From IMG/VR virus record IMGVR_UViG_3300029305_004466: DNA of 64,000 nucleotides; one strand, given 5' to 3'. Positions 1,706 through 24,059 of the stretch are shown in pieces. The notes below the pieces were generated by a model. It was not told the origin of the DNA. It did no database searches and saw nothing but the letters and a program-made list of their open reading frames with translations. Each line of letters opens with the position of its first letter. Positions within the stretch are counted from its first letter, which is position 1. Source of the stretch: a virus (Duplodnaviria; Caudoviricetes). The position numbers and the translations under genes are program-made.

Positions 1706-4700
1706 ATGAGTATTTTATTAACAATCAACGAATTACGTAGCAAGGTGTGGAACACAGTAAAGAATGCAGGTAAGCATACATGGAAGGATATTTGCTCCAT
1801 GAACCGTAAAGAGCTTGAGGATTTAAACGTTCCTAGCTATTTAGAGAAGTTTGCTGAATCCGAAACTATTGGTGGTGTTACTTTTACTGGTAAGAGACTT
1901 TCTCCTGCTATTGTTGAGGAGAACTACAAGAACATGTGCTCTAAGCTTTCTCAGTTTGAGATTGACAGAGCAAAGGCAGAGATTGAGGCTTCCGCTAAGA
2001 AGGCAGGATGTACACCTAACTTAACATGGCAGGAAATCTGGGCAACTCATAAGGATTTTCAGCACCGTGTATCTCACCAGAAGAGAGAGATTACTTCCCA
2101 GACTAAGGTGTGTGGATATAATATCACTCCAGATGAAAAGCGTGAGTATTACACAATGGATTTAAGCAAGAAAATGGAAGTTAAGGACATTGACCGCAAT
2201 ACCAATATTAAAGATTGGTTATTTGATGTTGCAGTTCCTTATGCTGATTTAATGGAAACAGCAGAGAATCTGGGTGTTAACTTAGTTACTTTTGACCCAG
2301 AAGGTTTTGAAGTTCCAGAGTGTGACAATAAAGACCAGATGCTTAAGCAGTTGTTAACTCATGCTTACAAGTACGGTATTATTGATGTATCTACTGGCGA
2401 TAAGTATTTCCCAGTAGGTTTATCTGCTTCCAAGGCACGTTCTGGTGGTGTTATTTGGCTTGCAAATACAGGTAACTGGGCAAACATGGAGAAGTTCCGT
2501 GCTCAGGTTCTTCATGTTACAGACGAAGAGTATGCAAACATGAAGAAAGACCCATGTGTTATCGCTAAGTTCGAGACTGGTTCTATCGGTATGAGAACAT
2601 CTAGCGTTATTAATGTATCTAAAGCTGGTGCTAAGCTTCGTGGTGATAACAGCGTTTTAAGCAACATCAGATGTAAAGTTGTTCCAGATATTGTTGCTGA
2701 AATCCCTCTTACAACATTAGAACCGAATAAGGGTGCTGTAGGTGCATTAAAGCCATTTGAATTCGTTATGAGCGAAAGAATATATGAAGTGAATTATTCG
2801 GACGGTTGTAGCTTAATTAAGTTACAGACATTCGTTGATATTCTTCATCAGGCTGGTGAAATTACTGATAAGCAGTATCAGACATTCACAACAAAGTGGC
2901 GTGAATATGGCTTTGATTCCAAGATGCTTATTGAGGATGAAGAATTATACAGATTCCTCACATCTAAGGATTTCAAATCCGTTATGCAGGTTCGTTTCTT
3001 CGGTGGTGTAAAGGGTATGGTTATCCCTGTTGCTGAAATGGACGGAGATGAAAGACTTGCTGAAGTGGACATGCTTGTTTTCAAGAAGTCTGCTAAGTAT
3101 ATCTCTAAAGACGCTCCGTTTGAAGTTATTAACTTCTCCAAAGCTAAAAAGGGTATGGCTATGCTGAACTTCCAGTTCATTCAGGCTACTGTTACAGACG
3201 GCAACGTACTTATTAAGGGTGCTCAGAGAGCTTTTGAAATCGTAAAGAATGCTCTTAATGACCCAGCTGGTGCTTTAAAGTTCATCGCAGGCGTTAGAAA
3301 CTTAAACGATGACGGTGAAGAATTAGCTACCAAGATTGCAAATGACTTAGAAGTAGAGCCACGTTTAGTTACTGAACATTACCATCATGCTCAGCTTCTT
3401 GAAAAGGTTAAGAAGTATGTGCATAACGTAGGTTTTGGTAAGATTCCTGTTGACGGTGCATTCCAGTATATTGTAACAGACCCATTAAACCTTTATCACA
3501 AGGCTATGGGTGATGAATTTGAATCTGCTCTTAATGCAGGTGAAATTTATTACAATGGTATTGACGGTATTCAGGCTGGTATGTGGAGAAGCCCAATGAT
3601 TCACTACAGCGAGCCTCAGAGAGCTCTTTGTAAGCATGTTGATTACCTCTGGATGTATAAGGACATTATTGTTCTTAATCCAAGAGATGCCATTGCACCT
3701 GCTCTCGGTGGTGCCGACTATGACGGAGACAAATTCTTACTTTTATTGGATAAAAATGACAATTCCTTTGAAAGTGATTTTGTTAAACAGATTCAGATGC
3801 CGGGTTATGTTATCTATGATGAAGGCAATACTGCTCCTAAGGTAGATAACAATATTGAAAACCGTATTAAGTATTATGTTGCTTTATCCACTCCTAACCG
3901 TACAGGACAGATTACAAACTGGGCAACCTGTATCACAGACTTAATGATTAACGAACAGTTAAAAGGCAATATGAAAGCCTACAACTGGTACAAGAGAGTT
4001 CTTGTTCGTTTAAGATTTGCTCAGGGTTGGGAAATCGACCTTCCTAAGACTGGTATCAGTGCAGACGGTCCACAGGGCGACATGCTTCCTACAAAGTATT
4101 GTAAGCCTTCTATGAAGCCACAGTGGTTTGTAGACATGAGAACCTTCGAAGGTAGAGAAGTTTCTACAACTGATAAAGACGGTAATAATATTGTTTATAC
4201 TGGCAACTCTCCAATGGAACAGTTACATCAGTATGCTATTCAGTTCTGGAATCAGATTGTTGCAGGATATATTGTAACACCTAGAACTATGCTTGATGTA
4301 TTCCGTGCAACCTTTAATCAGGTAGAAAGCAATGCTTTTGAATCCATTAAGGGTCAGGTTATTGAATATGAACGCCTTTACAGAACTGAAAGTAAGAATA
4401 TTAACGGCTTACTTGATGCAGGTGTTATTTCCGAGCAGGAACAGAAAGATATGTTCGAAAAGCTGATTGAAACACATCACACATCTCTTAATTCCTTACT
4501 GGGTGGCAATGTAACTACAGATGTTATTGCATATGCTTGTTACTATGCCGCAAACTTTAGAAAGGATAAGAATGATAATAATACCAAGGTTACTGGTAAG
4601 AGAAGTTATGGTTGGGTATGCTATTATGCTGAAACCTTAGCTCTTTTATACCGTAATAATAATGGTATGAGCCTTGTTGCACTTCCAGACAAGGAAATGG

Positions 4701-13336: not shown

Positions 13337-14004
13337 TACATATTGTATGTTAAGAAACATACATGAATAACCATGTGCATAAGATATCTAATCAATATCG
13401 TCATGGATAAGCCGTATGATAGAGAGAATCATGTGACTGATAGGTTGCATAGATGCTCCTTGTATTAGTAGTAATGTTAATACAGAAGAGGGGAACCCCT
13501 CAACATCAAGGTTTAGTGTATGTTTATACTGTTTGTTAGTGCAGAATGCTTTTGGCAGGAGCAATAGACGCTTACCCGAAAGGTAAGAAGAATCCATTAA
13601 AGCGGTAGCCTGAGAAACTATCACACCTAATGGAACTCTCAAACAATCCTGTTTGTCGTGAATGGAAGAAATTCCAGTATAACAAAAGCATCGCTGGTAG
13701 TAGCCCAAGACAATAAAAGATTTTATTTAATGAAAAAGTGAATCATATAAATAAAAACATTCTGAATGATGGGTGAGGCTTGGAGGTATCAGTCCTCTAT
13801 GAGTTTAAGGTTATAGCTAAGTATGACGAGTATGAGATGCCCTTCGAGGAGCATGTGATACCGCATGGCTGGTTGGCTAGGGTAAGAAGCTTACAGATGA
13901 CGATTTGTAGGTTCAGACTTATTCTCTCATTCGCATAATAAGCATAAGGTATAAACAATAGGATGAAGGTCCATTCTTGTATGTTTCTTAGGGTACAATA
14001 TGTA
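13337..14004 (+). ncRNA. large structured ncRNA, ROOL-like
   Basis: ~670 nt with no credible ORF; 13337-13363 pairs with 13978-14004; follows a promoter and precedes the tRNA cluster. Confidence 0.55.
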
Positions 14005-14156
14005 CCTTGCGACTTTGAATTCGTGTTAAATGCGAGTTCCTTTCAAAGGTTTTTTCCAATAACATTCTAGTGTATAGACCTCTGTTTTCGGACATGTTCG
14101 CACACTGCTATTAGGGTTTTTGCATAGCTTAGGCTTTGGTAGCAGGAGAAAAACCT

Positions 14157-14228
<72 letters not shown>

Positions 14229-14543
14229 TTATCCTCTTAGTAACTTTGCAGAGTTATCTAAGAAAAAGACATAATTAAAGTCTTAGTAAAGTCCTGCAAG
14301 ACTGAAAAGACAATGACAACAACCTTGTGTCTTAGTGGTTCTAATTTGGTTGTAGATGTCAAAGGATTCTGTATCATGATGTGCTGACCTACCAATTTGT
14401 AGGGCTATGATGAGAAGTCTATAGTGGGACTCCTTCTCCAAGTCAGGCTATGTGCAGATGGTAAAAGAGTTGAACCTCACCTAACAGTTGCAGTTTGGCA
14501 GTTTGAATGGCAGCAGGGTGTTAATTAAGAAAAAACTGTCAAT

Positions 14544-14615
14544 GGCTCCTTGGTCAAGTGGTTAAGACATCGCCCTTTCACGGCGGTAACGCTGGTTCAA
14601 ACCCAGTAGGAGTCA
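14544..14615 (+). tRNA. tRNA-Glu(TTC)
   Basis: cloverleaf, loop CTTTCAC. Confidence 0.9.
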
Positions 14616-14730
14616 TTTGGAGAAGAGGTAGGTAAGGTGGCAGGGATGGTTCCCATTGTGTTAGCAGTCGGTCAGAACGCTTTGACGGCAGTACCGCAGC
14701 TTAAAAATCAGTTTAGCTTCTCCAATACAT

Positions 14731-14804
14731 AGCGGGGTGGAGCAGTCCGGAAGCTCGTCAGGCTCATAACCTGAAGGTCGCAAGTTCAAATCTTGCCCCC
14801 GCCT
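14731..14804 (+). tRNA. tRNA-Met(CAT), initiator-like
   Basis: GCGGGGTGGAGCAG 5' end, mismatched 1:72 pair, loop CTCATAA. Confidence 0.88.
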
Positions 14805-14881
14805 CTGTAAGTTAATCCATTGACTTACACCTCACCTTATACCGCAGGCGTTCTTTGTAGCTTTCTCCTGCGGTATATAAT

Positions 14882-14967
14882 GGTAAGATGTCCGAGTGGC
14901 TTAAGGAGCTGGTCTTGAAAACCAGTGATGCGTAACTGCACCGTGAGTTCGAATCTCACTCTTACCG
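14882..14967 (+). tRNA. tRNA-Ser(TGA)
   Basis: long variable arm, loop CTTGAAA. Confidence 0.9.
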
Positions 14968-15182
14968 TTCTAAGTTCGAAAGGTCTTAGTTAAAAAACCT
15001 TAAACGTAAGGATTACAGAGGGCTATGGGTTGACGACCATAGAGCTTACGTTGTGAGAAAACCACAGGTGGCTAATCTGCTTTGTTCTATTAGCATGGAA
15101 AAATAGGAGAGTTAATTGAGCAATTTGTCTCACACAATATTGCTTAGGGCGGCAACCTCATGTCAAAGAAATAGCCAAACAC

Positions 15183-15268
15183 GGAGATTTACTCAAGTGG
15201 TTGAAGAGGAGGACTTGCTAAGTCTTTAGTATCGTAAGGTAGCGAAGGTTCGAATCCTTCAATCTCCG
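15183..15268 (+). tRNA. tRNA-Ser(GCT)
   Basis: long variable arm, loop TTGCTAA. Confidence 0.88.
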
Positions 15269-15514
15269 CTGAGCTGAGGTGCTAGAACTCAACTCTATGT
15301 AATAGACACACCTGTAAAAGATGTTTTGAGATTTAAGACTTCTTTTTGAAAGAAGCCACTGAATCAAAGTACATATCTACCTTGACCAGCTAGGTACGAC
15401 ATCAGTAGGAGGAAGTTACATAGATATGTTGGCAGTACGAAGAACTGTCTGCTTGGAAAATGAAGAATGATGGTCATTCCCGTTTCTACCATTTCTGTAC
15501 GTTAACAGAATTAA

Positions 15515-15588
15515 CGAGATGTAGGTCAGCTTGGTAGACCGCTTGATTTGGGTTCAAGAAGTCGCACGTTCGAATCGTGTCATCTCGA
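15515..15588 (+). tRNA. tRNA-Pro(TGG)
   Basis: cloverleaf, loop TTTGGGT. Confidence 0.88.
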
Positions 15589-16182
15589 CTAGCCAGAACA
15601 GAAGACATTTCGAGTTCGGCAAGAAAAAACTACATAGTCTTCATTAAGAAAGGAGGAATGGTATATGATTATTATTGTTGGCGGATTGCTGTGTTGTATG
15701 CTGTTCTTCCTTGAAGAACGTGTAGGCACAATTACTATTATGAATGGAGTGCCAGAGATTAGTCTAACAGCGGTTAAGTGGCTTTTGAGGTTTAGTCACA
15801 TAAATTCTAACTACTGGCATCCTGAGCCCAGAGTGCTCACGACAGCTTTTGTAGGCGGATTTATATGAATAATGACCTCAAAGAAACCTACTACATTGTT
15901 GAAGTGAGCGTTTAATTATAGAATATAGAATATAAACTAAATTAACAGTCAACACCGACATTATGGCAGTGTCACAGTGAAGAAGGAAAACTTATAAAAC
16001 CCGTTAAGATATTAATCCCCACATATGATAAATTAGGGATTGTTCACTTAAATGGTTAGAAAGAAAGAATAAAATATGTTGACAAAGAGAGACGGCTTAA
16101 TGCCATTAAGCCATAGAACGAATAGAATGAATATTATGTAAACCGCCCCGGTCCCGGTTATGATGTCGGGGCGGTATTTTTT

Positions 16183-16294
16183 GGGACGATAGTTTAATTG
16201 GAAAAATACTGGCATTAGCAATAGCCCGGGATTGCTAGAGACGGAGTTGGAACACCGTATCACCAGAGACAGGAGTTCAATTCTCCGAGTCCCA
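16183..16294 (+). ncRNA. tRNA-like RNA with ~50 nt two-hairpin insert replacing the anticodon loop
   Basis: D-arm, CTGG/CCAG stem, GGAGTTCAATTCTCC T-arm, partial acceptor stem. Confidence 0.55.
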
Positions 16295-16610
16295 CTTTCT
16301 CTTTCTGGGTTCCTGAATAGGAGTAGGCACTCATAATGCTTAGAATTCCTTTGTAAGAGAATATTAAAACTTCCATTATTGATACTGAGTATATTGTAAA
16401 CCTTGTTAATTGATGGACGAGGAGCAATTGTTATCTTTATCAATACAAAACCGATTTGATTCGGATAGGTAAATTGCCGAGGCAAGGTAAGTTATTAGTT
16501 TTGGTAGTCTAATAATAAAGAAGATGTGCTAAGAACAAGGATGGCGGTTGCATGATTAGCCATGGACAATGATTATGCAATGAGGCAGCAAATCGGTCTT
16601 AGCGACCTAT

Positions 16611-16684
16611 GGACCTTTAGCTCAGTTGGTTAGAGCGTCCGGCTCATAACCGGATGGTCGTAGGTTCGAGCCCTACAAGGTCCA
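16611..16684 (+). tRNA. tRNA-Ile2/Met(CAT)
   Basis: GGACCTTTAGCTCAG...AGGTCCA resembles Firmicute Ile2 (lysidine) tRNA; loop CTCATAA. Confidence 0.88.
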
Positions 16685-16890
16685 CTATACCGAGGGATGG
16701 TAGACTGATATAACAGTGGATGACAGCAAAGTTTCGTCTGTCGAAGGGATAGGGGCAATACATGTTACCGCCTATCGTGTAGGTATAATATTACAAAGTG
16801 TATTCGAATGAGTATTCTGTTTAACGGAAGAAAGTCAATCTTAAATGTGAAATATCTATTGACGAGGATATAGTAACAGCTTTGTACTGT

Positions 16891-16960
16891 AGGACATTAG
16901 CTTAATGGTAAAGCACACGACTGATAATCGTGGTCAGCAGTTCGATTCTGTTATGTTCTA
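16891..16960 (+). tRNA. tRNA-Ile(GAT)
   Basis: CACGA-CTGATAA-TCGTG anticodon arm; short variable loop. Confidence 0.78.
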
Positions 16961-17108
16961 TTCGGTGAAAAGCTGATAGATTACTGTCGATAGGGAGGCA
17001 GTTGCCCAGTGAAGGTAGCCGCCAGCTAACGCAGAGTAAATATGAGTATGGAGAACAAGTCCCCTATGATTTGCCATAAGCATACGAAATGGTTAGCTGG
17101 ATTAACCT

Positions 17109-17201
17109 CGGAGAGTAGCTCAGTGGGCAGAGCTTCTTGCTTAGAATGGGTAACTGCAAGTGAAATCCCGTTGGTCATGAGTTCGAATCTCATCTCTCCG
17201 T
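17109..17201 (+). ncRNA. tRNA-like RNA with a possible pseudoknot in place of the anticodon arm
   Basis: perfect acceptor, D and T arms; middle segment has CTTGC/GCAAG and AATGGG/CCCGTT pairings. Confidence 0.6.
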
Positions 17202-17323
17202 CTTTGTAAAGGTAAGTTATGGATGCATAATACTAGGATGAAAGGACTTAACTTTAAATGTCAATCTTCAAAACAGTAAGCGACAGCCTTTACAAAATTG
17301 TATCTTGAAAGGAACATATTTTT

Positions 17324-17548
17324 ATGAATGTTGCATTTGCATCAAAAATTGCTAATCTTATTAAAACTGGTCATTATTGGTCATATGCACATATTGCTGA
17401 AGAGTTGCATATAAATAAAAACACAGTAGCTCGTATTGGGAAAATTTATAAAGATGCCCGATGGAGCATTTATAGTGTTGACCAATTAGCACAGAAGCAT
17501 CACGTTAGCAAAAATGTTATTCGGGCTATTCGTGGTACTAAAGTCTGA
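17324..17548 (+). CDS. small HTH-like protein
   Basis: SYAHIAEELHINKNTVARI and SVDQLAQKHHVSKNVIRAI; GAAAGGA RBS. Confidence 0.65.
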   Translation: MNVAFASKIANLIKTGHYWSYAHIAEELHINKNTVARIGKIYKDARWSIYSVDQLAQKHHVSKNVIRAIRGTKV

Positions 17549-18158
17549 AAAAGTGACACATAATTATTCACAAAAGGGTGAATAACTAATGTTTATTAGT
17601 TTGAAACGGGTTCAAATCCTGATGTGTCACCTCAAGGGGCGATATATGAAAAAAGGTTTACTAAATCGCAAAGGGGCGGTTTTACTGCGGTAATAACTTT
17701 AATCATAATCACAGCTCCCGTGGGATAGATGGCTAAGGGATAGCTAAATCCCAATAGCAGGTTCCAATCGCAAGTTGTCCTGCCAAAAACCAAAAGGTTA
17801 TTGTGATAAGTATCATTTGTATGGAAACATACATGTGAGAAAAAACATCAGTGCTTGACATGCCAAAATACAAGCTGAATGAAGGTTGGTAAATGTATAC
17901 GCCAAAATACATAAGAGGTATATAAATATTAAAATAAATTGGATAATATTCATGATAAAACCGATTTAATATGTGAATTAACACAAGCAGTATATGTACC
18001 CGTTTGTCCAGTGAAGAATGAAGTATGTAACAAGTTGCATATACCATTGGATAGATTCAACCTTCAAGGTTGCCGTGAGACAAAAAGTAGGTATTTAGTA
18101 TGCAAAAGATATCAATGGCACGATAAATGAGTGAAATTCTCATCACTGATGTCAACTT

Positions 18159-18266
18159 GGAGAATTAGCTCAGTTGGCTAGAGCCCTACGAGGAGTTTCG
18201 ATTGGGTGAGCAATATGCTCCTAGACACCAGAAGAAACAGCCCCAGTTCGAATCTGGGATTCTCCA
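18159..18266 (+). ncRNA. tRNA-like RNA with expanded anticodon region
   Basis: GGAGAAT/ATTCTCC acceptor, canonical D-arm, CCCAG-TTCGAAT-CTGGG T-arm, ~55 nt middle. Confidence 0.6.
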
Positions 18267-18631
18267 ATATGACGTTTTAGGGTTTGGGCTCTTACGTAGA
18301 GTTGTTGTCAAATACCCTCATCGCTTCTTATCAGGCGGAAAGAAAACGGGACAACAAGTAGAGGGGGCTGATAATCTCTTCGAAAGTACCGAATATCATT
18401 GATTCTAACAATTGCTAATGTTGCATGAAGCGTGTGCTTCTCTAGCTTCCAACTAGGGCTTAGCCGCTTATAGAATCACAAATGAATGAGTGTGGAAAAC
18501 TCAGGTAGGTGTAACCCCTACTATTCGGTTTGGAAGCATATACCCATTGTGCTTCTTGCCATTATGTGTAAGCCTTTTTTCGGCTAAAGAGAAGGAAACT
18601 CTTAAAAACCAAATTATAGCATTATACATCA

Positions 18632-18661
18632 TTGACACATTTTGTTGCAGTGGTGTATAAT
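18632..18661 (+). promoter_or_regulatory. sigma-A-type promoter within an inverted repeat
   Basis: TTGACA-18-TATAAT. Confidence 0.65.
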
Positions 18662-18971
18662 GCTATTAGTTTTTATGGGAAGGAAACCCTATAATAAACC
18701 GTTAAGAAATTTTCATGTGGATATTTAAAACAAGAGCATGAAGGAGTCGGCATGGTAGCGAAAAAAGCCGAAAGCCTGTCTAATTTCACTTAAATGAAAG
18801 AAAGAAAAGACGAAAGGAAACCTCTACCAATCCCAGTCTAATATTTTGCAAAGGTATAAACTGAACCTGTTATCTATATATCCTAACATCTATACATTAG
18901 GTTTAAGTCGGGCCTGCATTAAAGTAGTCATTAAGTATAGAAATGTTTAAAACTACTGTATTGGACAACTT

Positions 18972-19102
18972 GCCGGAATATGCAAGCGGGTTGCAAGCAG
19001 CTATTTTTTAATAGTGAGTGAAACACATGAGTATAACTTGTGCTGTGACTGTCCTATGTGGGAGTAGGACATTAAAAGGGAGTTCGAATCTTCTATCCGG
19101 CA
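18972..19102 (+). ncRNA. degenerate tRNA-like RNA with large insertion
   Basis: GCCGGA/TCCGGC acceptor and GTTCGAATC T-loop. Confidence 0.45.
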
Positions 19103-19136
19103 CTTACATAATCTTATGGAAAGGAGAAAAATCACT

Positions 19137-19415
19137 ATGAACAAGACTGAATTAGTTAAGGTTATTGCTGATACTCAGGGTATTGCAGTGAAAGATGCTG
19201 AAAAGGCTATTAATGGCTTCATGGAAGTTGTTAAGACCGAAGTAGCAAAAGGCAATCCTGTACAGTTAGTTGGTTTTGGTACATTTACTGTAAGTAAACG
19301 TGCTGAAAAGACTGGTATCAATCCTCAGACTAAGGAAAAGATGGTTATTCCTGCTTGCAATGCACCTAAATTCAAAGCTGGCGAAAAGTTTAAGCAGATG
19401 GTTAAAGAAGCATAA
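19137..19415 (+). CDS. hup: HU family DNA-binding protein
   Basis: MNKTELV..., VQLVGFGTF, RAEKTGINPQT, PKFKAG. Confidence 0.95.
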   Translation: MNKTELVKVIADTQGIAVKDAEKAINGFMEVVKTEVAKGNPVQLVGFGTFTVSKRAEKTGINPQTKEKMVIPACNAPKFKAGEKFKQMVKEA

Positions 19416-19494
19416 TTTCCGGTAGTTAGCGGTGGACGTTTTTACTTTTCTATTTTCATCATCGCTTTATAAAACAAGGACAAGATAGATAGTT

Positions 19495-19569
19495 GTATGT
19501 GTAAGCTCAGTTGGGAGAGCTGGGGCGGAGAACCCGCCTTGTGCGAAGGTTCGAGTCCTTCCATGTGCA
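19495..19569 (+). tRNA. atypical/pseudo tRNA (noncanonical anticodon loop)
   Basis: D and T arms canonical; anticodon loop lacks U33. Confidence 0.5.
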
Positions 19570-19697
19570 ATATTAGCCACTGGTATTATTTTAAATGTAA
19601 CCTAATAACCATTTTAAAAATCTTTGGTAGGCTACATAATCACACCTAACCACAATACTTAATGCCAGTGGTTACTTAAAAAAGGAGGAATTCAAAA

Positions 19698-19856
19698 ATG
19701 AACAGAAACAGAAAGTTAAGCACAGCTACCTATGGACCAAGACACGTACAGCCACACAACCCTTATTCTATGGCTACAAAGTCAGGTATGAAGAAGATGC
19801 ACACAGATAAGACTCGTGGCGGTAATCCTGATGGTAGAGCAAACAGAGATATGTAA
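19698..19856 (+). CDS. small basic protein (52 aa)
   Basis: AGGAGG RBS, ATG 19698, TAA 19854-19856. Confidence 0.6.
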   Translation: MNRNRKLSTATYGPRHVQPHNPYSMATKSGMKKMHTDKTRGGNPDGRANRDM

Positions 19857-19884
19857 TTACATAGCAGGTCTATGACCTGCAAAT

Positions 19885-19957
19885 GGGTCACTAGCTCAGT
19901 AGGTAGAGCACTAGACTTTTAATCTAGGTGTCACGGGTTCGAACCCCGTGTGGCTCA
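19885..19957 (+). tRNA. tRNA-Lys(TTT)
   Basis: cloverleaf, loop CTTTTAA. Confidence 0.9.
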
Positions 19958-20042
19958 CTAGCCCCTTCGGGGCATTAATAGTAACTATTAATAGACGGGT
20001 TTACCGTCTTTTTTATTGGTTTTACAGAAAGGAAAGAGTATA

Positions 20043-20516
20043 ATGGAAAAAACAAAAGAATTGTGTAGCAAGATATACATGCATTGGTTCTTAGAAGAAA
20101 TGAAAGACCCCAAAATGCCTTACAAAGAAATTGATGAGGAATTTCTACAGAACTCTTTTATCACAAAGATTCTTCTTACAAAATTTAAATCGTTTGATGT
20201 TGATATTCATTTACCAATGCCTCTGTTAGCATTATTATCATTGTGTACAGATGAAAATCCGGGCATGTCTCAAATCATTCTTAAGGATTTACTTAATAGC
20301 ATTAAATCACGCATGGGAGCTATACCAAAAGGCTACGTTATTACGTCTACAGATTTTGCTTTTTGTTTCCCAAATAGTTTCCCTATAATTGCTAACGAGC
20401 AAATTTATGAGAAGTATATTAAATTATGGGATGGACAAAAACGTGAAAGACCAAATGAAATGGCAAGTGATAACTTGTGTGACACACCTGAATGGTGGAA
20501 AGAGGTTATGCAATGA
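20043..20516 (+). CDS. hypothetical protein
   Basis: GAAAGGA RBS before ATG 20043. Confidence 0.7.
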   Translation: MEKTKELCSKIYMHWFLEEMKDPKMPYKEIDEEFLQNSFITKILLTKFKSFDVDIHLPMPLLALLSLCTDENPGMSQIILKDLLNSIKSRMGAIPKGYVITSTDFAFCFPNSFPIIANEQIYEKYIKLWDGQKRERPNEMASDNLCDTPEWWKEVMQ

Positions 20517-20698
20517 AAAGAAAAGTAAACAGGTTTTTTAAGGCATTGTTGGCGGGGACAGCTGTTTTTGCAATAGCTACAACATTCGCATTACTTATTA
20601 GCTATTTTGTTAAGAACTCTTCAGCGATAGGCATCTTAGGAGTGATATTCATTCTTGTATTGGTAGTCGGTTATGCCTTAACTTCAGACCTGCCTTAA
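20513..20698 (+). CDS. small membrane protein (2 TM)
   Basis: two hydrophobic segments; ATGA overlap with upstream gene. Confidence 0.65.
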   Translation: MKRKVNRFFKALLAGTAVFAIATTFALLISYFVKNSSAIGILGVIFILVLVVGYALTSDLP

Positions 20699-20836
20699 AT
20701 AAAAAGGAGGAAAAGAGTATGAAAAAGAAGGATAAGAAACGCAAATGGAGTAATCGTGATAACATATTTGTTATTACAGCTATAATAATCCTGATAATTT
20801 CGACTGCACTAATTATTATACGTTAGGAGAAAAAAC

Positions 20837-21343
20837 ATGGCGATAATGGGTGAATGGATTCCGCATTGTGGATTCAAATCAAAAGCTGATGCTCACAAAG
20901 TAGCGTTAGAGCTTGAAAGCATCGGATATGATAATGGCACCGATGAATTTAATACACAAGAAATTGTAGATTTTGCACGTAATAATCCCACTTGTGAAAT
21001 TCATAAGTTATTAGAATGGGACGATAAAATAGCTGCTGAAGCTCATCGTAATGAGCAAGCGAGAGAGATTCTTCGTTTTCTTAAAATCACTGTTGTAACA
21101 ACACAGGAAGACAATCCAGTATTTCAGCCAACAAAAGTAAGATACTTTGTTAATACTGGTAAACATGATGGAACATATAAGAAAACTGAAGTCGTATTCC
21201 AGAATGCTAGTGAAGCAGACAGAATTATGGAAGGTATGAGGCGTGATGCTGAGAATTTTATTAACAGATATCAGATTTATGCTCATCTTAATCCGAATAT
21301 TCCTGCTGCTATTCAGGCATTACAAGCAGTAATCAATCCTTAA
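20837..21343 (+). CDS. conserved phage protein (EWDD..AAE..R..QAR family), putative accessory of the adjacent RAMP system
   Basis: IVDFARNNPTCEIHKLLEWDDKIAAEAHRNEQAREIL; abuts the pentamer array. Confidence 0.75.
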   Translation: MAIMGEWIPHCGFKSKADAHKVALELESIGYDNGTDEFNTQEIVDFARNNPTCEIHKLLEWDDKIAAEAHRNEQAREILRFLKITVVTTQEDNPVFQPTKVRYFVNTGKHDGTYKKTEVVFQNASEADRIMEGMRRDAENFINRYQIYAHLNPNIPAAIQALQAVINP

Positions 21344-21357
21344 TAAGTTGATGTTTT

Positions 21358-21952
21358 CTCTTGCATATATATTGGCTTAAATGCCAATGACAATAAGGCA
21401 ATTCATTGCACATAATTTCATAACAGGACAGCACAAAATACGTCAACATAGGCTAAGACATGTTAGCTCACATGGCTCTTTTGAGCCAATATATATGTAA
21501 GAGAGGACAGGACAACTCAGTGCATTTTACCACAATGAATGACAATCTATAACATGACAGAGGGGCGAGGACACTCGCCCCATTTTTATAAGTATAAATA
21601 TTGGCTTTAATTAGTCAATGAATATATTACAATACAAATGCACGATAGCTTAATACTGAACAGAATAGCATAATGCATGATACAATAAAACACATGGCTC
21701 TTAGAGCCTTTATTTATGCTTATAAATAGTAGGATTATGAATACATATATTGGCTTTAATGGTCAATGAAAACAAAATAAGTAAGCTGATTATTGTACAG
21801 AACAGCCCAGCCCACTACAAAACAGTACAGGACAAAACAAATGGCTCTTAGAGCCTTTATATGTGTTCATAAACACAAGCACAAAGACAGCAGAATACAT
21901 GTCAGTGCAACATAGGATATTACAAAACATTTAAATCCTATCAAAAGATAGG
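21358..21952 (+). ncRNA. array of structured guide-like RNAs containing five pentamer (NN+NYA) repeat tracts
   Basis: three cassettes (21358-21503, 21586-21725, 21735-21872), each outer stem + ATTGGC hairpin + CAATGA + 14-16 pentamers + ATGGCTCTT..GAGCC hairpin; extra tracts at 21505-21559 and 21873-21929. Confidence 0.85.
21562..21587 (+). terminator. intrinsic terminator within the array
   Basis: GGGGCGAG/CTCGCCCC stem + ATTTTT. Confidence 0.7.
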
Positions 21953-21970
21953 TAGAAGGAGACACACATT

Positions 21971-22645
21971 ATGGCAACAAAGAAAAACACAACCCCAGAA
22001 GTACAGGTAGTAGAAACTGAATTACAGAATAAGATTCGTTTCGCTACAGCAACAATCACCATTCAGGGTGATAGCGATTTAATTCTTAACAAGATGAGAG
22101 ACAGTACTACACAGCAGCTTGCAGATAAGCAGGAAGGTAAAGTACAGGGTACTAAGGCTCCTGTTAATATGTATGAGCATCTTGTTGGTTCTATTCACTG
22201 GTTAAAGGGTGAAGAAACTAACTATACAGAAGAAGGATGGAAAAATGCATTAGCAAACAATACTCCGGGTTATCCATCTTCTGGTTTAAAGAAAGCTCTT
22301 TGCGATGCAGTTGTTCGTGTATTAGGTGAAACATATAGCACGAAATTTAATGCAAATATGCAGATTCTTGATAGTTTCCTGCCGATTAAGTTTGCGGCAA
22401 GCACATATGATAAGTCTTTATTTAGTCCACAGAAGGGCAGTCCTGTCCTTTGTTACAGAAATGTATTCAAAGACTGGGAAACAACTTTCACAATCAAGTA
22501 CATTCCAGATAACTATTCTCTGGACCAGATTCTTGAAGTTATCAATTGTGCAGGCTTTGCATGTGGTATTGGTAGCCACAGACCATCTAGTAAGGGCGGT
22601 TCCAATGGTATGTTCCATGTAGCAAAGGTTGTAGAAATGGTATAG
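21971..22645 (+). CDS. stand-alone RAMP/Cas7-like RNA-binding protein
   Basis: N-terminal beta strand (ATITIQGDSDL), PGYPSSGLKKAL (compare RAMP IPGSSLKGAL), C-terminal glycine-rich loop GFACGIGSHRPSSKGGSNGMFHV. Confidence 0.8.
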   Translation: MATKKNTTPEVQVVETELQNKIRFATATITIQGDSDLILNKMRDSTTQQLADKQEGKVQGTKAPVNMYEHLVGSIHWLKGEETNYTEEGWKNALANNTPGYPSSGLKKALCDAVVRVLGETYSTKFNANMQILDSFLPIKFAASTYDKSLFSPQKGSPVLCYRNVFKDWETTFTIKYIPDNYSLDQILEVINCAGFACGIGSHRPSSKGGSNGMFHVAKVVEMV

Positions 22646-22652
22646 GTGTTTT

Positions 22653-23111
22653 ATGGCTGATTCAAAGAAAAGATTATATTCAAGAGAAACCATTAACAAG
22701 CATTACAGCGATTTTATTGAACAGGTAAAAACTTATAATGAAAAAGGCTTTCCTGATAAAATACTTGATGTTGTTATTTTTGGTTCGTACATTAATACAA
22801 ACAACCCTAAAATGCACGACTTGGATATAGGAATAAGATTTGAAAAACATCCAGAACTGTATGAGGATTACAAAAAGAAAATGTCAAAAGAGCAATTGGA
22901 GAAATATGCAAACAGATGTTTTTTGGACAGATTAGTAATACCTCATACAGAGGAAATTAGATTTTTAAAAGCAAAGCATGGAACTATTTCTCTATATGAT
23001 ATTGATTATGACAAAGAATATATCTTTAATGATAAACATTTGTACATAGTAAAAAATGGCGAGCTAATAGAAGATGCATTACCTATTCCTTTGAATTTGC
23101 AAACCAAATAA
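22653..23111 (+). CDS. minimal nucleotidyltransferase (Pol-beta superfamily)
   Basis: VVIFGSY...DLDIGI motif. Confidence 0.8.
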   Translation: MADSKKRLYSRETINKHYSDFIEQVKTYNEKGFPDKILDVVIFGSYINTNNPKMHDLDIGIRFEKHPELYEDYKKKMSKEQLEKYANRCFLDRLVIPHTEEIRFLKAKHGTISLYDIDYDKEYIFNDKHLYIVKNGELIEDALPIPLNLQTK

Positions 23112-23119
23112 GGTGAAAA

Positions 23120-23332
23120 ATGATGAGTATTAACAAAAACCGTTATATAGGAAAAAAGATAGGTTTTTATTACGACAGTAAAAAAGCCGTACATGAAGTA
23201 GAAGCTATTATAAAAGACGTAAGTATTTTAGGTATACTGGTAAGAGTTACCAAAAGTAGTAATGTATTTTACAATGTAAGCAACCAGTATCTTATTCCGC
23301 TAAATGCAAGTTTTGTATACAAATTCTTATAA
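23120..23332 (+). CDS. hypothetical protein
   Basis: AAGGTG RBS. Confidence 0.6.
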   Translation: MMSINKNRYIGKKIGFYYDSKKAVHEVEAIIKDVSILGILVRVTKSSNVFYNVSNQYLIPLNASFVYKFL

Positions 23333-23342
23333 GGAGGTACAT

Positions 23343-23591
23343 ATGTCACCGATTGAAATTCAGGAAATCACAAACAGAGTAAATGCTATGACTGAAGAAG
23401 AACAGGTTTTAGTCGCTTCTCTGTTACCTGTACAGCTTATGTTAGATGCAATTAATGCTAAGTATAACGCTGTTGCAGATGAATTAGATGAAATGAACGA
23501 ACTCATGAGAATTAAGAATAACCAGATTACAAGAGCAGCAGGTACTACAAGAACACTTACACATGTTCTTAATGAAATAGCGGCTGGTTAA
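23343..23591 (+). CDS. hypothetical protein
   Basis: AAGGAGG RBS before ATG 23343. Confidence 0.7.
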   Translation: MSPIEIQEITNRVNAMTEEEQVLVASLLPVQLMLDAINAKYNAVADELDEMNELMRIKNNQITRAAGTTRTLTHVLNEIAAG

Positions 23592-23598
23592 ATTTCTG

Positions 23599-23627
23599 TT
23601 GACACAAAATGTTACAAGCATTATAAT
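23599..23627 (+). promoter_or_regulatory. consensus sigma-A promoter with ACAAAATGTTACA operator in the spacer
   Basis: TTGACA-17-TATAAT. Confidence 0.8.
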
Positions 23628-23858
23628 GTCATTATCCTTAATATGAGTTCATGAATTGGTTACTGTAATGCTCAGTATTAAATCATGGTTGCCTCTCGAT
23701 TGGCATTAAAAGGTCAGCCATAGCCAAAAACATTTCTACCTATCAGGTGGGTTAGGGGATTATCCCCGCTTACTAAAAAACTTTTGTACGCTGGAAGTTC
23801 CGTAGGGGTGTCTGTTAGCTTAGGGCGAAACAGAGGGTAGTTTATAAAGCGTACACCT

Positions 23859-23931
23859 TGGGCTATCGCCAAGCGGTAAGGCACAGCACTTTGACTGCTG
23901 CATTTCGTTGGTTCAAATCCAACTAGCCCAG
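23859..23931 (+). tRNA. tRNA-Gln(TTG)
   Basis: TGGGCTA/TAGCCCA acceptor, loop CTTTGAC. Confidence 0.9.
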
Positions 23932-24059
23932 TTCGAGATGAAAATCTCGCAGAAACCTTTATTATGTTGTTTGTTGATTAATAATATAATTCGTGTTTCT
24001 ACTTCCTTTCTGGCAGGGGCGTGTATAACGCCCCAATTTTATTATATGGAGGACATATC

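What the first reader, a model, noticed from the sequence alone, without database searches (positions are those of the whole stretch)
21505..21559. Guide 2 decodes on the antisense strand to C5 DNA methyltransferase motif X
Seen: ggaca ggaca actca gtgca tttta ccaca atgaa tgaca atcta taaca tgaca gives NN = gg gg ac gt tt cc at tg at ta tg. The reverse complement of the gapped pattern is CAn TAn ATn CAn ATn GGn AAn ACn GTn CCn CC, compatible with Q Y (I/M) Q I G N T V P P. Established: C5-cytosine MTase motif X is typically QYxQIGNAVPP. The T-for-A difference would be a guide U paired with a target G. A second, independent protein motif under the same rule supports the gapped code and shows either strand can be targeted. 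Inference: the target is a host restriction-modification MTase or a rival element's MTase.
Basis: partly seen in the sequence, partly recalled or inferred. Interest (0 to 1): 0.9.

Follow-up and report, generated by a model that had tools for sequence, protein, structure and literature searches.

The report
Phage VIPR guide aimed at DNA methyltransferases
This stretch is one guide RNA of a VIPR-type system (a recently described phage relative of CRISPR) in a roughly 210-kb gut phage, and its variable bases spell, codon by codon, the conserved motif X of cytosine-5 DNA methyltransferase genes, so the phage probably silences such genes in rivals or hosts.

Summary

- **The tract.** Window 21505-21559 holds 11 pentamers of the form NN-A-Y-A. 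It lies between a long hairpin cassette and an intrinsic terminator. Such tracts occur nowhere else in the 64 kb.
- **The protein.** The gene just downstream (21971-22645) has a Cas7/RAMP fold. It is homologous to the Vipr protein of phage SUSP1.
- **The system.** This is a VIPR system (bioRxiv 2026), but its fixed triplet is AYA, not GGY.
- **Guide 1.** Under the published rule (NN pairs with the target, every third target base skipped), guide 1 gives more than 107 exact viral-contig hits. All are in frame in family-A DNA polymerases.
- **Guide 2.** Read literally (Thr codon), it has no coding hit. With one guide-U/target-G wobble it hits 9 viral contigs, at least 119 genomes and 40 metagenome contigs. 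All are in frame at motif X (QY[IM]Q[IV]GNAVPP). A backwards control gave 0.
- **A relative.** In a related phage the homologous guide carries GC at that unit and decodes exactly to ..QIGNAVPPLM.

Silencing itself is inferred, not shown. The scan's first readers had already noted this locus as VIPR-like. It is a new variant of a known kind.

The parts
20837..21343 (+). 168-aa candidate accessory (vap-like) gene, directly upstream of the guide array
   Evidence: tblastn finds a homolog upstream of the array, on the same strand, in 84 of 86 related loci. It matches phrog_15946 and no Pfam family. The model has pLDDT 81.5 but no significant PDB match. It shows no similarity to SUSP1 vap1.
21352..21509 (+). 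Cassette 1: a long outer stem (arms 21352-21381 and 21480-21509) enclosing guide 1 (16 pentamers, 21391-21470)
   Evidence: The arms form a 30-nt inverted repeat, 87% complementary. The fold has z = -8.5. Guide 1 decodes on the sense strand to ..MFQFYGANRTGRWA, with more than 107 exact IMG/VR hits in DNA_pol_A ORFs.
21495..21559 (+). Guide 2: 13 pentamers NN-A-Y-A. The finding's 11 units are 21505-21559; the first three units overlap the 3' arm of cassette 1.
   Evidence: On the antisense strand it decodes to [QH]Y[IM][QH][IM]G[KN]TVPPL[IM]. With one U:G wobble it matches C5-MTase motif X exactly.
21562..21590 (+). Intrinsic terminator that closes the guide 2 transcript
   Evidence: An 8-bp stem with 7 GC pairs, a 4-nt loop and a T-run. 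A terminator is conserved at this place in L003, L004 and L378, with different stem sequences.
21585..21726 (+). Cassette 2, with guide 3 (about 21622-21692)
   Evidence: A 26-nt inverted repeat, the fold and the pentamer tract. The target was not determined.
21735..21872 (+). Cassette 3, with guide 4 (about 21770-21839)
   Evidence: A 25-nt inverted repeat, the fold and the pentamer tract. The target was not determined.
21885..21929 (+). Tract 5: 9 pentamers just upstream of the vipr-like gene, nearly identical in close relatives
   Evidence: The 1-nt-skip pattern gave 1 IMG/VR hit, which is about the chance level.
21971..22645 (+). vipr-like gene: a 224-aa stand-alone RAMP/Cas7-fold protein
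   Evidence: AlphaFold model, pLDDT 85. Foldseek to Csm3/Cmr4, E 4e-7. VIA-align Z 11.0 to Cmr4 and 10.4 to Csm3. BLASTP to SUSP1 Vipr, E 5e-10; hhalign 96.6%. AYA-NN tracts lie upstream of homologs in nearly all of 80 IMG/VR loci.

Best explanation
The intergenic region 21344-21970 encodes an array of VIPR guide RNAs (vrRNAs) for the Vipr-like RAMP protein encoded at 21971-22645. By homology with the characterised VIPR systems, one protomer binds each pentamer, holds the fixed triplet (here A-Y-A instead of G-G-Y) and presents the two variable bases. These pair with double-stranded DNA in which every third base is skipped, so a guide reads codon positions 1 and 2 and ignores the wobble position. 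Guide 2 (21495/21505-21559) reads the sense strand of cytosine-5 DNA methyltransferase genes at motif X (QY[I/M]Q[I/V]GNAVPP(LM)). It tolerates one rU:dG wobble at the Ala codon, and a second at Val in the commoner QV variant. Binding would block transcription of the methyltransferase gene and of anything downstream in its operon. The carrier is most likely a competing phage or mobile element, or a host defence island. Shown here: the tract, the protein fold and its homology, co-occurrence of the protein with such tracts, and the in-frame target matches. Inferred: RNP assembly, DNA binding, silencing and the biological benefit.
For: 1. Protein. It has a RAMP/Cas7 fold. It shows direct similarity to the experimentally characterised SUSP1 Vipr over the C-terminal strands, helix and G-loop.
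2. RNA. 201 distinct tracts were found in related loci, median 12 units. Positions 1-2 are uninformative (IC 0.03 and 0.09). Position 3 is A in 75%. Positions 4 (C/T 93%) and 5 (A 96%) are inflated, because the detector itself required Y-A there. The tracts lie upstream of the gene in nearly all of 80 loci.
3. The code works here. Guide 1's core gives more than 107 exact in-frame hits, against my estimate of about 0.03 by chance. All are in DNA_pol_A ORFs of about 650 aa.
4. Guide 2. With G for A at one position it gives 9 hits in IMG/VR, at least 119 in GTDB genomes and 40 in metagenomes. Every one is in frame at the C-terminal motif of PF00145 proteins. The backwards control gave 0.
5. Unbiased check. 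A search allowing up to 2 mismatches in 401 Clostridia genomes returned only motif X sites, 2 of them, one in the centre genome itself. The control returned 0.
6. Relatives. In L003 and L004 one unit changes AT to AC (I to V, the commonest natural variant). In L378/L379 the homologous free tract carries GC, giving ..YKQIGNAVPPLM with no wobble. Between the window and L378, NN positions differ at 1 of 16 bases while the 'fixed' triplet positions differ at 8 of 24.
7. No self-target. Two complete related phage genomes have no C5 methyltransferase and no match at up to 3 mismatches, as reported for VIPR.
Against: The literal pattern (ACN, Thr) has no hit in IMG/VR or in the JGI metagenomes, and only one out-of-frame hit among the first 120 GTDB hits. 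The match therefore rests on a wobble or mismatch whose tolerance by this protein is untested. No target was found in the samples that hold the phage. The motif variant is rare in sampled Clostridia genomes. No direct evidence exists for expression, processing, RNP formation or DNA binding. The first three units of the 13-unit version are base-paired in the cassette 1 stem. The G-loop residues that read G1 and G2 in SUSP1 are not conserved, so the binding mode for AYA is only inferred.
Confidence: 0.8

Rival explanations
1. The guide is real, but its true target carries ACN at that codon. That would be a Thr-variant methyltransferase (GNTVPP) or another gene in a rumen or gut element not yet in the databases. 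The canonical Ala-type methyltransferases would then be only near-misses.
For: Window, L003, L004 and two bovine-gut RNA-library contigs all keep GT at this unit, which suggests the U is maintained. The databases sample herbivore-gut mobile elements poorly.
Against: There is no exact hit in three large collections. The 8-unit core with ACN gave 17 IMG/VR hits, mostly out of context, and only one looked like a methyltransferase. The L378 relative has GC, an exact match to Ala.
Confidence: 0.15
2. The resemblance to motix X is a coincidence of 22 bases, and guide 2 has an unrelated or no target.
For: One mismatch had to be allowed. By my estimate, a random 22-base gapped pattern would have a few single-mismatch hits somewhere in about 600 Gb.
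Against: The hits are not scattered. More than 160 hits fall in one conserved protein motif, all in frame with the skipped base at the wobble position. The backwards control gave 0. Two further 5' units extend the same motif. Relatives' guides vary along natural variants of the motif, and one matches it exactly. Guide 1 validates the rule independently.
Confidence: 0.04
3. Guide 2 acts on RNA. Because it is antisense to the methyltransferase mRNA, the RNP or the naked RNA binds the transcript rather than the gene.
For: Guide 2 is complementary to the sense strand. Published structures show that VIPR can pair with ssRNA (10.64898/2026.04.26.720927).
Against: Guide 1 has the same sense as its target's mRNA and can pair only with DNA. 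The published work finds incomplete filaments on RNA and shows silencing through dsDNA binding on either strand.
Confidence: 0.08
4. The pentamer tract is not a guide. It is a periodic protein-binding leader or sponge (TRAP-like, or a decoy for an ACA-specific RNase), or a DNA-level repeat.
For: My first reading was 11 ACA-like triplets with 2-nt spacers between a hairpin and a terminator.
Against: A Vipr homolog is always adjacent. The spacer dinucleotides carry protein-motif information in two independent guides. NN is more conserved than the triplet between relatives.
Confidence: 0.02

Closest known systems
VIPR (Viral Interference Programmable Repeat) systems, e.g. type II of Escherichia phage SUSP1 (bioRxiv 10.64898/2026.04.26.720920, 10.64898/2026.04.26.720927, 10.64898/2026.10.15.759431)
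   Same: Both have a stand-alone RAMP protein homologous to Vipr and are phage-encoded, with no cas genes or CRISPR array. The guides have a 5-nt period, with 3 fixed and 2 variable bases. The target is read with one base skipped, aligned to the codon wobble position. Targets lie on either strand and are genes of competing elements. There is no self-targeting. A second conserved small gene sits in the locus.
   Different: The fixed triplet is A-Y-A, not G-G-Y. SUSP1 G-loop residues D177 and W178, which read the two G's, are S and H here. Most guides sit inside long-stemmed hairpin cassettes with two conserved inner hairpins, or between a cassette and a terminator, instead of carrying a 3' pseudoknot tail. 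The partner gene shows no detectable similarity to vap1. The host is a roughly 210-kb phage of herbivore or human gut anaerobes. The targets are near-universal enzyme motifs (C5 methyltransferase motif X, PolA), not one satellite or prophage locus.
Divergent VIPR arrays with non-canonical repeat units reported by a genomic language-model survey (bioRxiv 10.64898/2026.10.21.760802; 21 clusters, e.g. GAC/NN, CAC/NN, WGT/NN, TGH/NN)
   Same: Both are period-5 arrays with a fixed triplet other than GGY next to a Vipr-like fold.
   Different: The text available to me does not name an AYA/NN (ACA/NN) unit. I could not tell whether this family is among those clusters. That paper reports no targets for them.
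Class 1 CRISPR backbone (Cas7/Csm3/Cmr4 filament on crRNA)
   Same: They share the RAMP fold (Z 9-11) and have one protomer per RNA period, with periodic interruption of the guide-target duplex.
   Different: The period is 5 rather than 6. Only 2 bases pair per unit. There are no repeat-spacer array, no adaptation genes, and no Cas5, Cas6, Cas10 or Cas3.

Membership tests
VIPR system | Vipr protein: a minimal RAMP with an RRM core, thumb and glycine-rich loop | tested here: met
   Model pLDDT 85. Foldseek to Csm3/Cmr4 E 4e-7, prob 1.0. VIA-align Z 11.0, 154 aligned residues, rmsd 3.6. The Gly-rich C-terminal loop is GIGSHRPSSKGGSNG.
VIPR system | Sequence homology to an experimentally characterised Vipr (SUSP1 ALH47069.1) | tested here: met
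   BLASTP E 5e-10, 34% identity over 47 aa. hhalign probability 96.6%, E 4.8e-10 over 62 columns. Only the C-terminal third aligns by sequence.
VIPR system | vrRNA made of tandem pentamers, 3 fixed and 2 hypervariable bases, next to the vipr gene | tested here: met
   There are 5 tracts in the window and none elsewhere in it. 201 distinct tracts were found in related loci, with IC near 0 at positions 1-2. Tracts lie upstream of the gene in nearly all of 80 loci.
VIPR system | Fixed triplet GGY, or the published variants NNNGG, YNNNG and NNNNG | tested here: not met
   The consensus is NN-A-Y-A. G makes up 12%, 2% and 2% of the three fixed positions. The residues that read G1 and G2 in SUSP1 (D177, W178) are replaced.
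VIPR system | Targets follow the 1-nt-skip rule, with the skipped base at the codon wobble position, on either strand | tested here: met
   Guide 1 gives more than 107 exact in-frame hits on the sense strand. Guide 2 gives more than 160 in-frame hits on the antisense strand with one wobble. The backwards control gave 0. The other skip lengths were not scanned.
VIPR system | A minimal locus with an accessory vap gene and no CRISPR array or cas genes | tested here: inconclusive
   A conserved 168-aa gene sits upstream in 84 of 86 loci. Rfam found no CRISPR repeat at gathering score. The partner has no similarity to vap1 and no significant fold match.
VIPR system | A conserved structured 3' tail capping the repeat tract | tested here: inconclusive
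   Cassette guides end in a conserved GGCTCTTAGAGCC hairpin inside a long outer stem. Guide 2 ends in a terminator hairpin whose sequence varies between relatives. No pseudoknot was examined.
VIPR system | vrRNA expressed and bound by Vipr; the RNP binds dsDNA and silences transcription | not testable with these tools
   The only data are short contigs from two bovine-gut RNA libraries of one study. They cover cassette 1 and guide 2 of a close relative, and DNA carry-over cannot be excluded.
C5 cytosine DNA methyltransferase (PF00145), as the target | The matched site lies in frame in a PF00145 protein at the C-terminal conserved motif X (..GNAVPP..) | tested here: met
   L360 and L342 ORFs score PF00145 at E 1e-57, with the match reaching profile position 323 of 324. 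All 9, 119 and 40 hits show ..F.G....QY[IM]Q[IV]GNAVPP.. in ORFs mostly 250-540 aa long.

The most novel reading that the evidence does not exclude
This phage lineage keeps long-lived guides aimed at near-universal catalytic motifs (C5 methyltransferase motif X, PolA) instead of at one particular rival. It also places U where the motif varies between A and G (Ala/Thr, Ile/Val), so that wobble pairing widens the guide's reach. If so, VIPR would serve here as a broad-spectrum weapon. It would strip competing phages or host defence islands of their methylation, or polar-silence RM or DISARM-like operons. It would do this with a Vipr that reads an AYA handle through a G-loop chemistry not yet described.
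Probability: 0.3. Interest if true: 0.8.

Novelty: new variant of a known kind. Interest (0 to 1): 0.62.

Why it matters
VIPR was described only in 2026, and almost entirely from GGY-type systems of Enterobacteria and Pseudomonas phages. This locus gives a second, testable 'handle' chemistry: A-Y-A read by a different G-loop. It also shows a different RNA scaffold and a well-populated family, with over 200 viral contigs and 201 distinct guides in the loci fetched here. That is useful both for understanding how the protein decodes the fixed triplet and for engineering orthogonal programmable repressors. The target is informative too. A guide that reads codon positions 1-2 of methyltransferase motif X cannot be escaped by synonymous change. 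It points to DNA methylation, meaning self-marking against restriction, as a battleground between co-resident mobile elements in gut anaerobes.

Tried and rejected
- **Rfam.** It found nothing in 21250-22050, either at gathering score or at E up to 10 with any sense.
- **First ideas.** I first considered a TRAP-like 11-triplet binding site or an ACA-RNase decoy. I dropped both once the Vipr homolog and the coding-motif matches appeared.
- **Literal guide 2 pattern (ACN).** It gave 0 hits in IMG/VR and 0 in JGI metagenomes. Its 8-unit core gave 17 IMG/VR hits, at or below my rough chance estimate. Nine of these were copies of one out-of-frame sequence, and only one looked like a methyltransferase.
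- **The L378 guide as a 12-unit exact pattern.** It gave 0 IMG/VR hits. Its 10-unit core does occur in metagenome hits such as L342.
- **Tract 5 pattern.** It gave 1 IMG/VR hit, about the chance level, so there is no target call.
- **Self-targeting.** There was no match at up to 3 mismatches in the window or in two complete related genomes. Those two genomes contain no PF00145 gene.
- **Whole genome.** None is held for the window.
- **Cultured phages.** The INPHARED phages share only tRNA-like stretches.
- **The 168-aa partner.** It has no Pfam family, no significant PDB fold match, one uncharacterised viral look-alike, and no similarity to SUSP1 vap1.
- **RNA-library contigs.** They leave parts of the array uncovered. 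I draw nothing from that.

Full report
**What is there**

Each unit is two free bases followed by A, then C or T, then A. In the 64-kb window, 55-nt frames with at least 8 of 11 in-phase Y-A units occur on the + strand only in five tracts between 21381 and 21939. The - strand has one frame, which just reaches 8.

The 627-bp intergenic region holds three homologous cassettes. Each has a 25-30-nt outer stem that encloses a tract (fold z-scores -8.5 and -6.7). There are also two free tracts. Guide 2 is one of them. It lies between the 3' arm of cassette 1 and an intrinsic terminator at 21562-21581.

The surroundings are those of a phage. The window carries a ROOL RNA and 11 tRNA genes. The same gene occurs on contigs of about 210 kb, and one related IMG/VR genome has direct terminal repeats.

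**The neighbouring protein**

The gene at 21971-22645 has no Pfam family. It has 81 homologs in the protein collection and 217 in viral contigs.

- An AlphaFold model built on 38 sequences has pLDDT 85.
- Foldseek places it with Csm3, Cmr4 and type VII Cas7 (E 4e-7).
- An independent aligner gives Z 11.0 to Cmr4 and 10.4 to Csm3.

That led me to three 2026 preprints describing VIPR: a stand-alone RAMP (Vipr) that polymerises on an RNA of GGY/NN pentamers. Vipr presents the NN bases to double-stranded DNA in which every third base is skipped. The result is transcriptional silencing of competing phages and satellites.

I located the SUSP1 locus from its YNNGG tracts and compared proteins. Pairwise BLASTP gives E 5e-10. 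Profile comparison gives 96.6% probability over the last 62 columns. The G-loop aligns, but SUSP1 D177 and W178, which read the two guanines, are Ser and His here.

**The RNA across the family**

AYA-NN tracts lie upstream of the gene, on the same strand, in nearly all of 80 viral loci. This holds down to 42% protein identity. Across 201 distinct tracts (median 12 units):

| Position | Content | Note |
|---|---|---|
| 1-2 | No information (IC 0.03 and 0.09) | variable NN |
| 3 | A in 75% | not part of the detection rule |
| 4 | C or T in 93% | inflated: the detector required Y here |
| 5 | A in 96% | inflated: the detector required A here |

A 168-aa gene is conserved upstream of the array in 84 of 86 loci. 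The downstream nucleotidyltransferase gene is not conserved.

**Does the published code apply?**

Guide 1 (21391-21470), read as codon positions 1-2 on the sense strand, gives ..MFQFYGANRTGRWA. Its 10-unit core has 20 specified bases. Every match is in frame in ORFs of about 650 aa with the motif RG[ML][FL]QFYGANRTGRWAGRL. These ORFs are family-A DNA polymerases. The full 16-unit guide differs from these sites at 1-6 of 32 read bases. So the 1-nt-skip, wobble-aligned rule holds for this AYA-type family.

**Guide 2**

The literal pattern includes ACN (Thr). It has no match in viral contigs or in metagenome contigs. Among the first 120 genome hits there is one, and it is out of frame.

Allowing G for A at that one position corresponds to a guide U facing a target G. 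The results then change:

| Collection | Exact matches |
|---|---|
| Viral contigs | 9 |
| GTDB genomes | 119 of the first 120 hits |
| Metagenome contigs (Ile version) | 40 |

- All of these lie in frame at ..F.G....QY[IM]Q[IV]GNAVPP.. near the C-terminus.
- Two ORFs checked are PF00145 at E 1e-57, matched to the last profile positions.
- The same pattern read backwards found nothing.
- A search allowing any two mismatches in 401 Clostridia genomes returned only two sites, both motif X, one of them in the centre genome itself. The control returned none.
- The two pentamers just 5' of the finding (ATGTA AGAGA) decode to L and [IM]. Nine or more of the 40 Ile-type hits continue with exactly CTN ATG, giving ..VPPLM.

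**Evidence from relatives**

- L003 and L004 (86-96% protein identity) keep the guide with one internal change, AT to AC. This turns Ile into Val, the commonest natural variant.
- L378/L379 (82% identity) carry the homologous free tract before a terminator, with GC where the window has GT. It decodes to ..YKQIGNAVPPLM, the canonical Ala, with no wobble.
- Between the window and L378, the read NN bases of units 3-10 differ at 1 of 16 positions. The nominally fixed triplets differ at 8 of 24 positions plus an indel. Selection therefore appears to act on the bases that specify the target.
- Two complete related genomes contain no C5 methyltransferase and no near-match to the guide.

**Mechanism and its limits**

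By homology, the RNP binds the methyltransferase gene at motif X and blocks transcription. Guide 2 pairs with the sense strand. Guide 1 pairs with the template strand of its own target. This fits DNA targeting, not mRNA targeting.

Whose gene is hit is open. A human-gut example sits in an island with SNF2 helicases, an N6/N4 methylase and ResIII proteins. Another sits beside a second C5 methylase and an endonuclease III-like gene. The variant is rare in sampled Clostridia chromosomes, which favours a mobile carrier.

Expression is not shown. Short contigs from two bovine-gut RNA libraries of one study cover cassette 1 and guide 2 of a close relative, but DNA carry-over cannot be excluded.

**Novelty**

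VIPR, its code, its wobble alignment and its use against conserved catalytic motifs are all published. A later survey reports 21 clusters with non-GGY units, giving GAC, CAC, WGT and TGH as examples. I could not tell whether this AYA family is among them.

What appears new is the A-Y-A handle with altered G-loop residues, the hairpin-cassette scaffold, and methyltransferase motif X and PolA as targets. None of the three VIPR papers mentions a methyltransferase.

Noticed in passing
window 13347-13991: A full-length ROOL RNA (Rfam RF03087, 305 bits) lies just upstream of a cluster of tRNA genes.
   Followed up: no
window 14156-23932: There are eleven tRNA genes (Asn, Glu, Met x2, Ser x2, Pro, Ile, Leu, Lys, Gln). 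tRNA-Gln lies about 1.2 kb downstream of the vipr-like gene.
   Followed up: no
window 21885-21929; L003 3910-3959; L004 3913-3957: Tract 5, directly before the vipr-like gene's ribosome-binding site, is almost identical in all close relatives, although the other guides differ. Its 1-nt-skip pattern has only a chance-level hit. It may be a guide with an unsampled target, or a regulatory leader.
   Followed up: partly
L003 3583-3588, L004 3484-3489, L378 about 1180: Some units in relatives are 6 nt long (TTTCTA, ATTAAA) where the window has 5 nt. The register slips by one inside an otherwise conserved guide. A bovine-gut RNA-library contig shows the same inserted C after window 21527.
   Followed up: partly
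L003 about 3500-3560: In this relative, the cassette in front of the methyltransferase guide has lost its internal guide. It is reduced to a plain hairpin, while the free guide behind it is kept.
   Followed up: no
window 22653-23111: A 152-aa nucleotidyltransferase (PF01909) gene follows the vipr-like gene. It is present in only 2 of 86 related loci, so it is probably not part of the system.
   Followed up: partly
L360 2785-14514: In a human-gut contig, a methyltransferase that matches guide 2 sits in a same-strand block with two SNF2/ResIII helicases, an N6/N4 methylase and a ResIII protein. This looks like a defence island, in which a roadblock at motif X could have polar effects.
   Followed up: partly
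L001 17280-18278; L002 9268-12663: The same phage carries a methyl-accepting chemotaxis-type sensor gene (sCache_3_3 plus MCPsignal) and a Spo0A-like response regulator. This points to a spore-forming Firmicute host.
   Followed up: no
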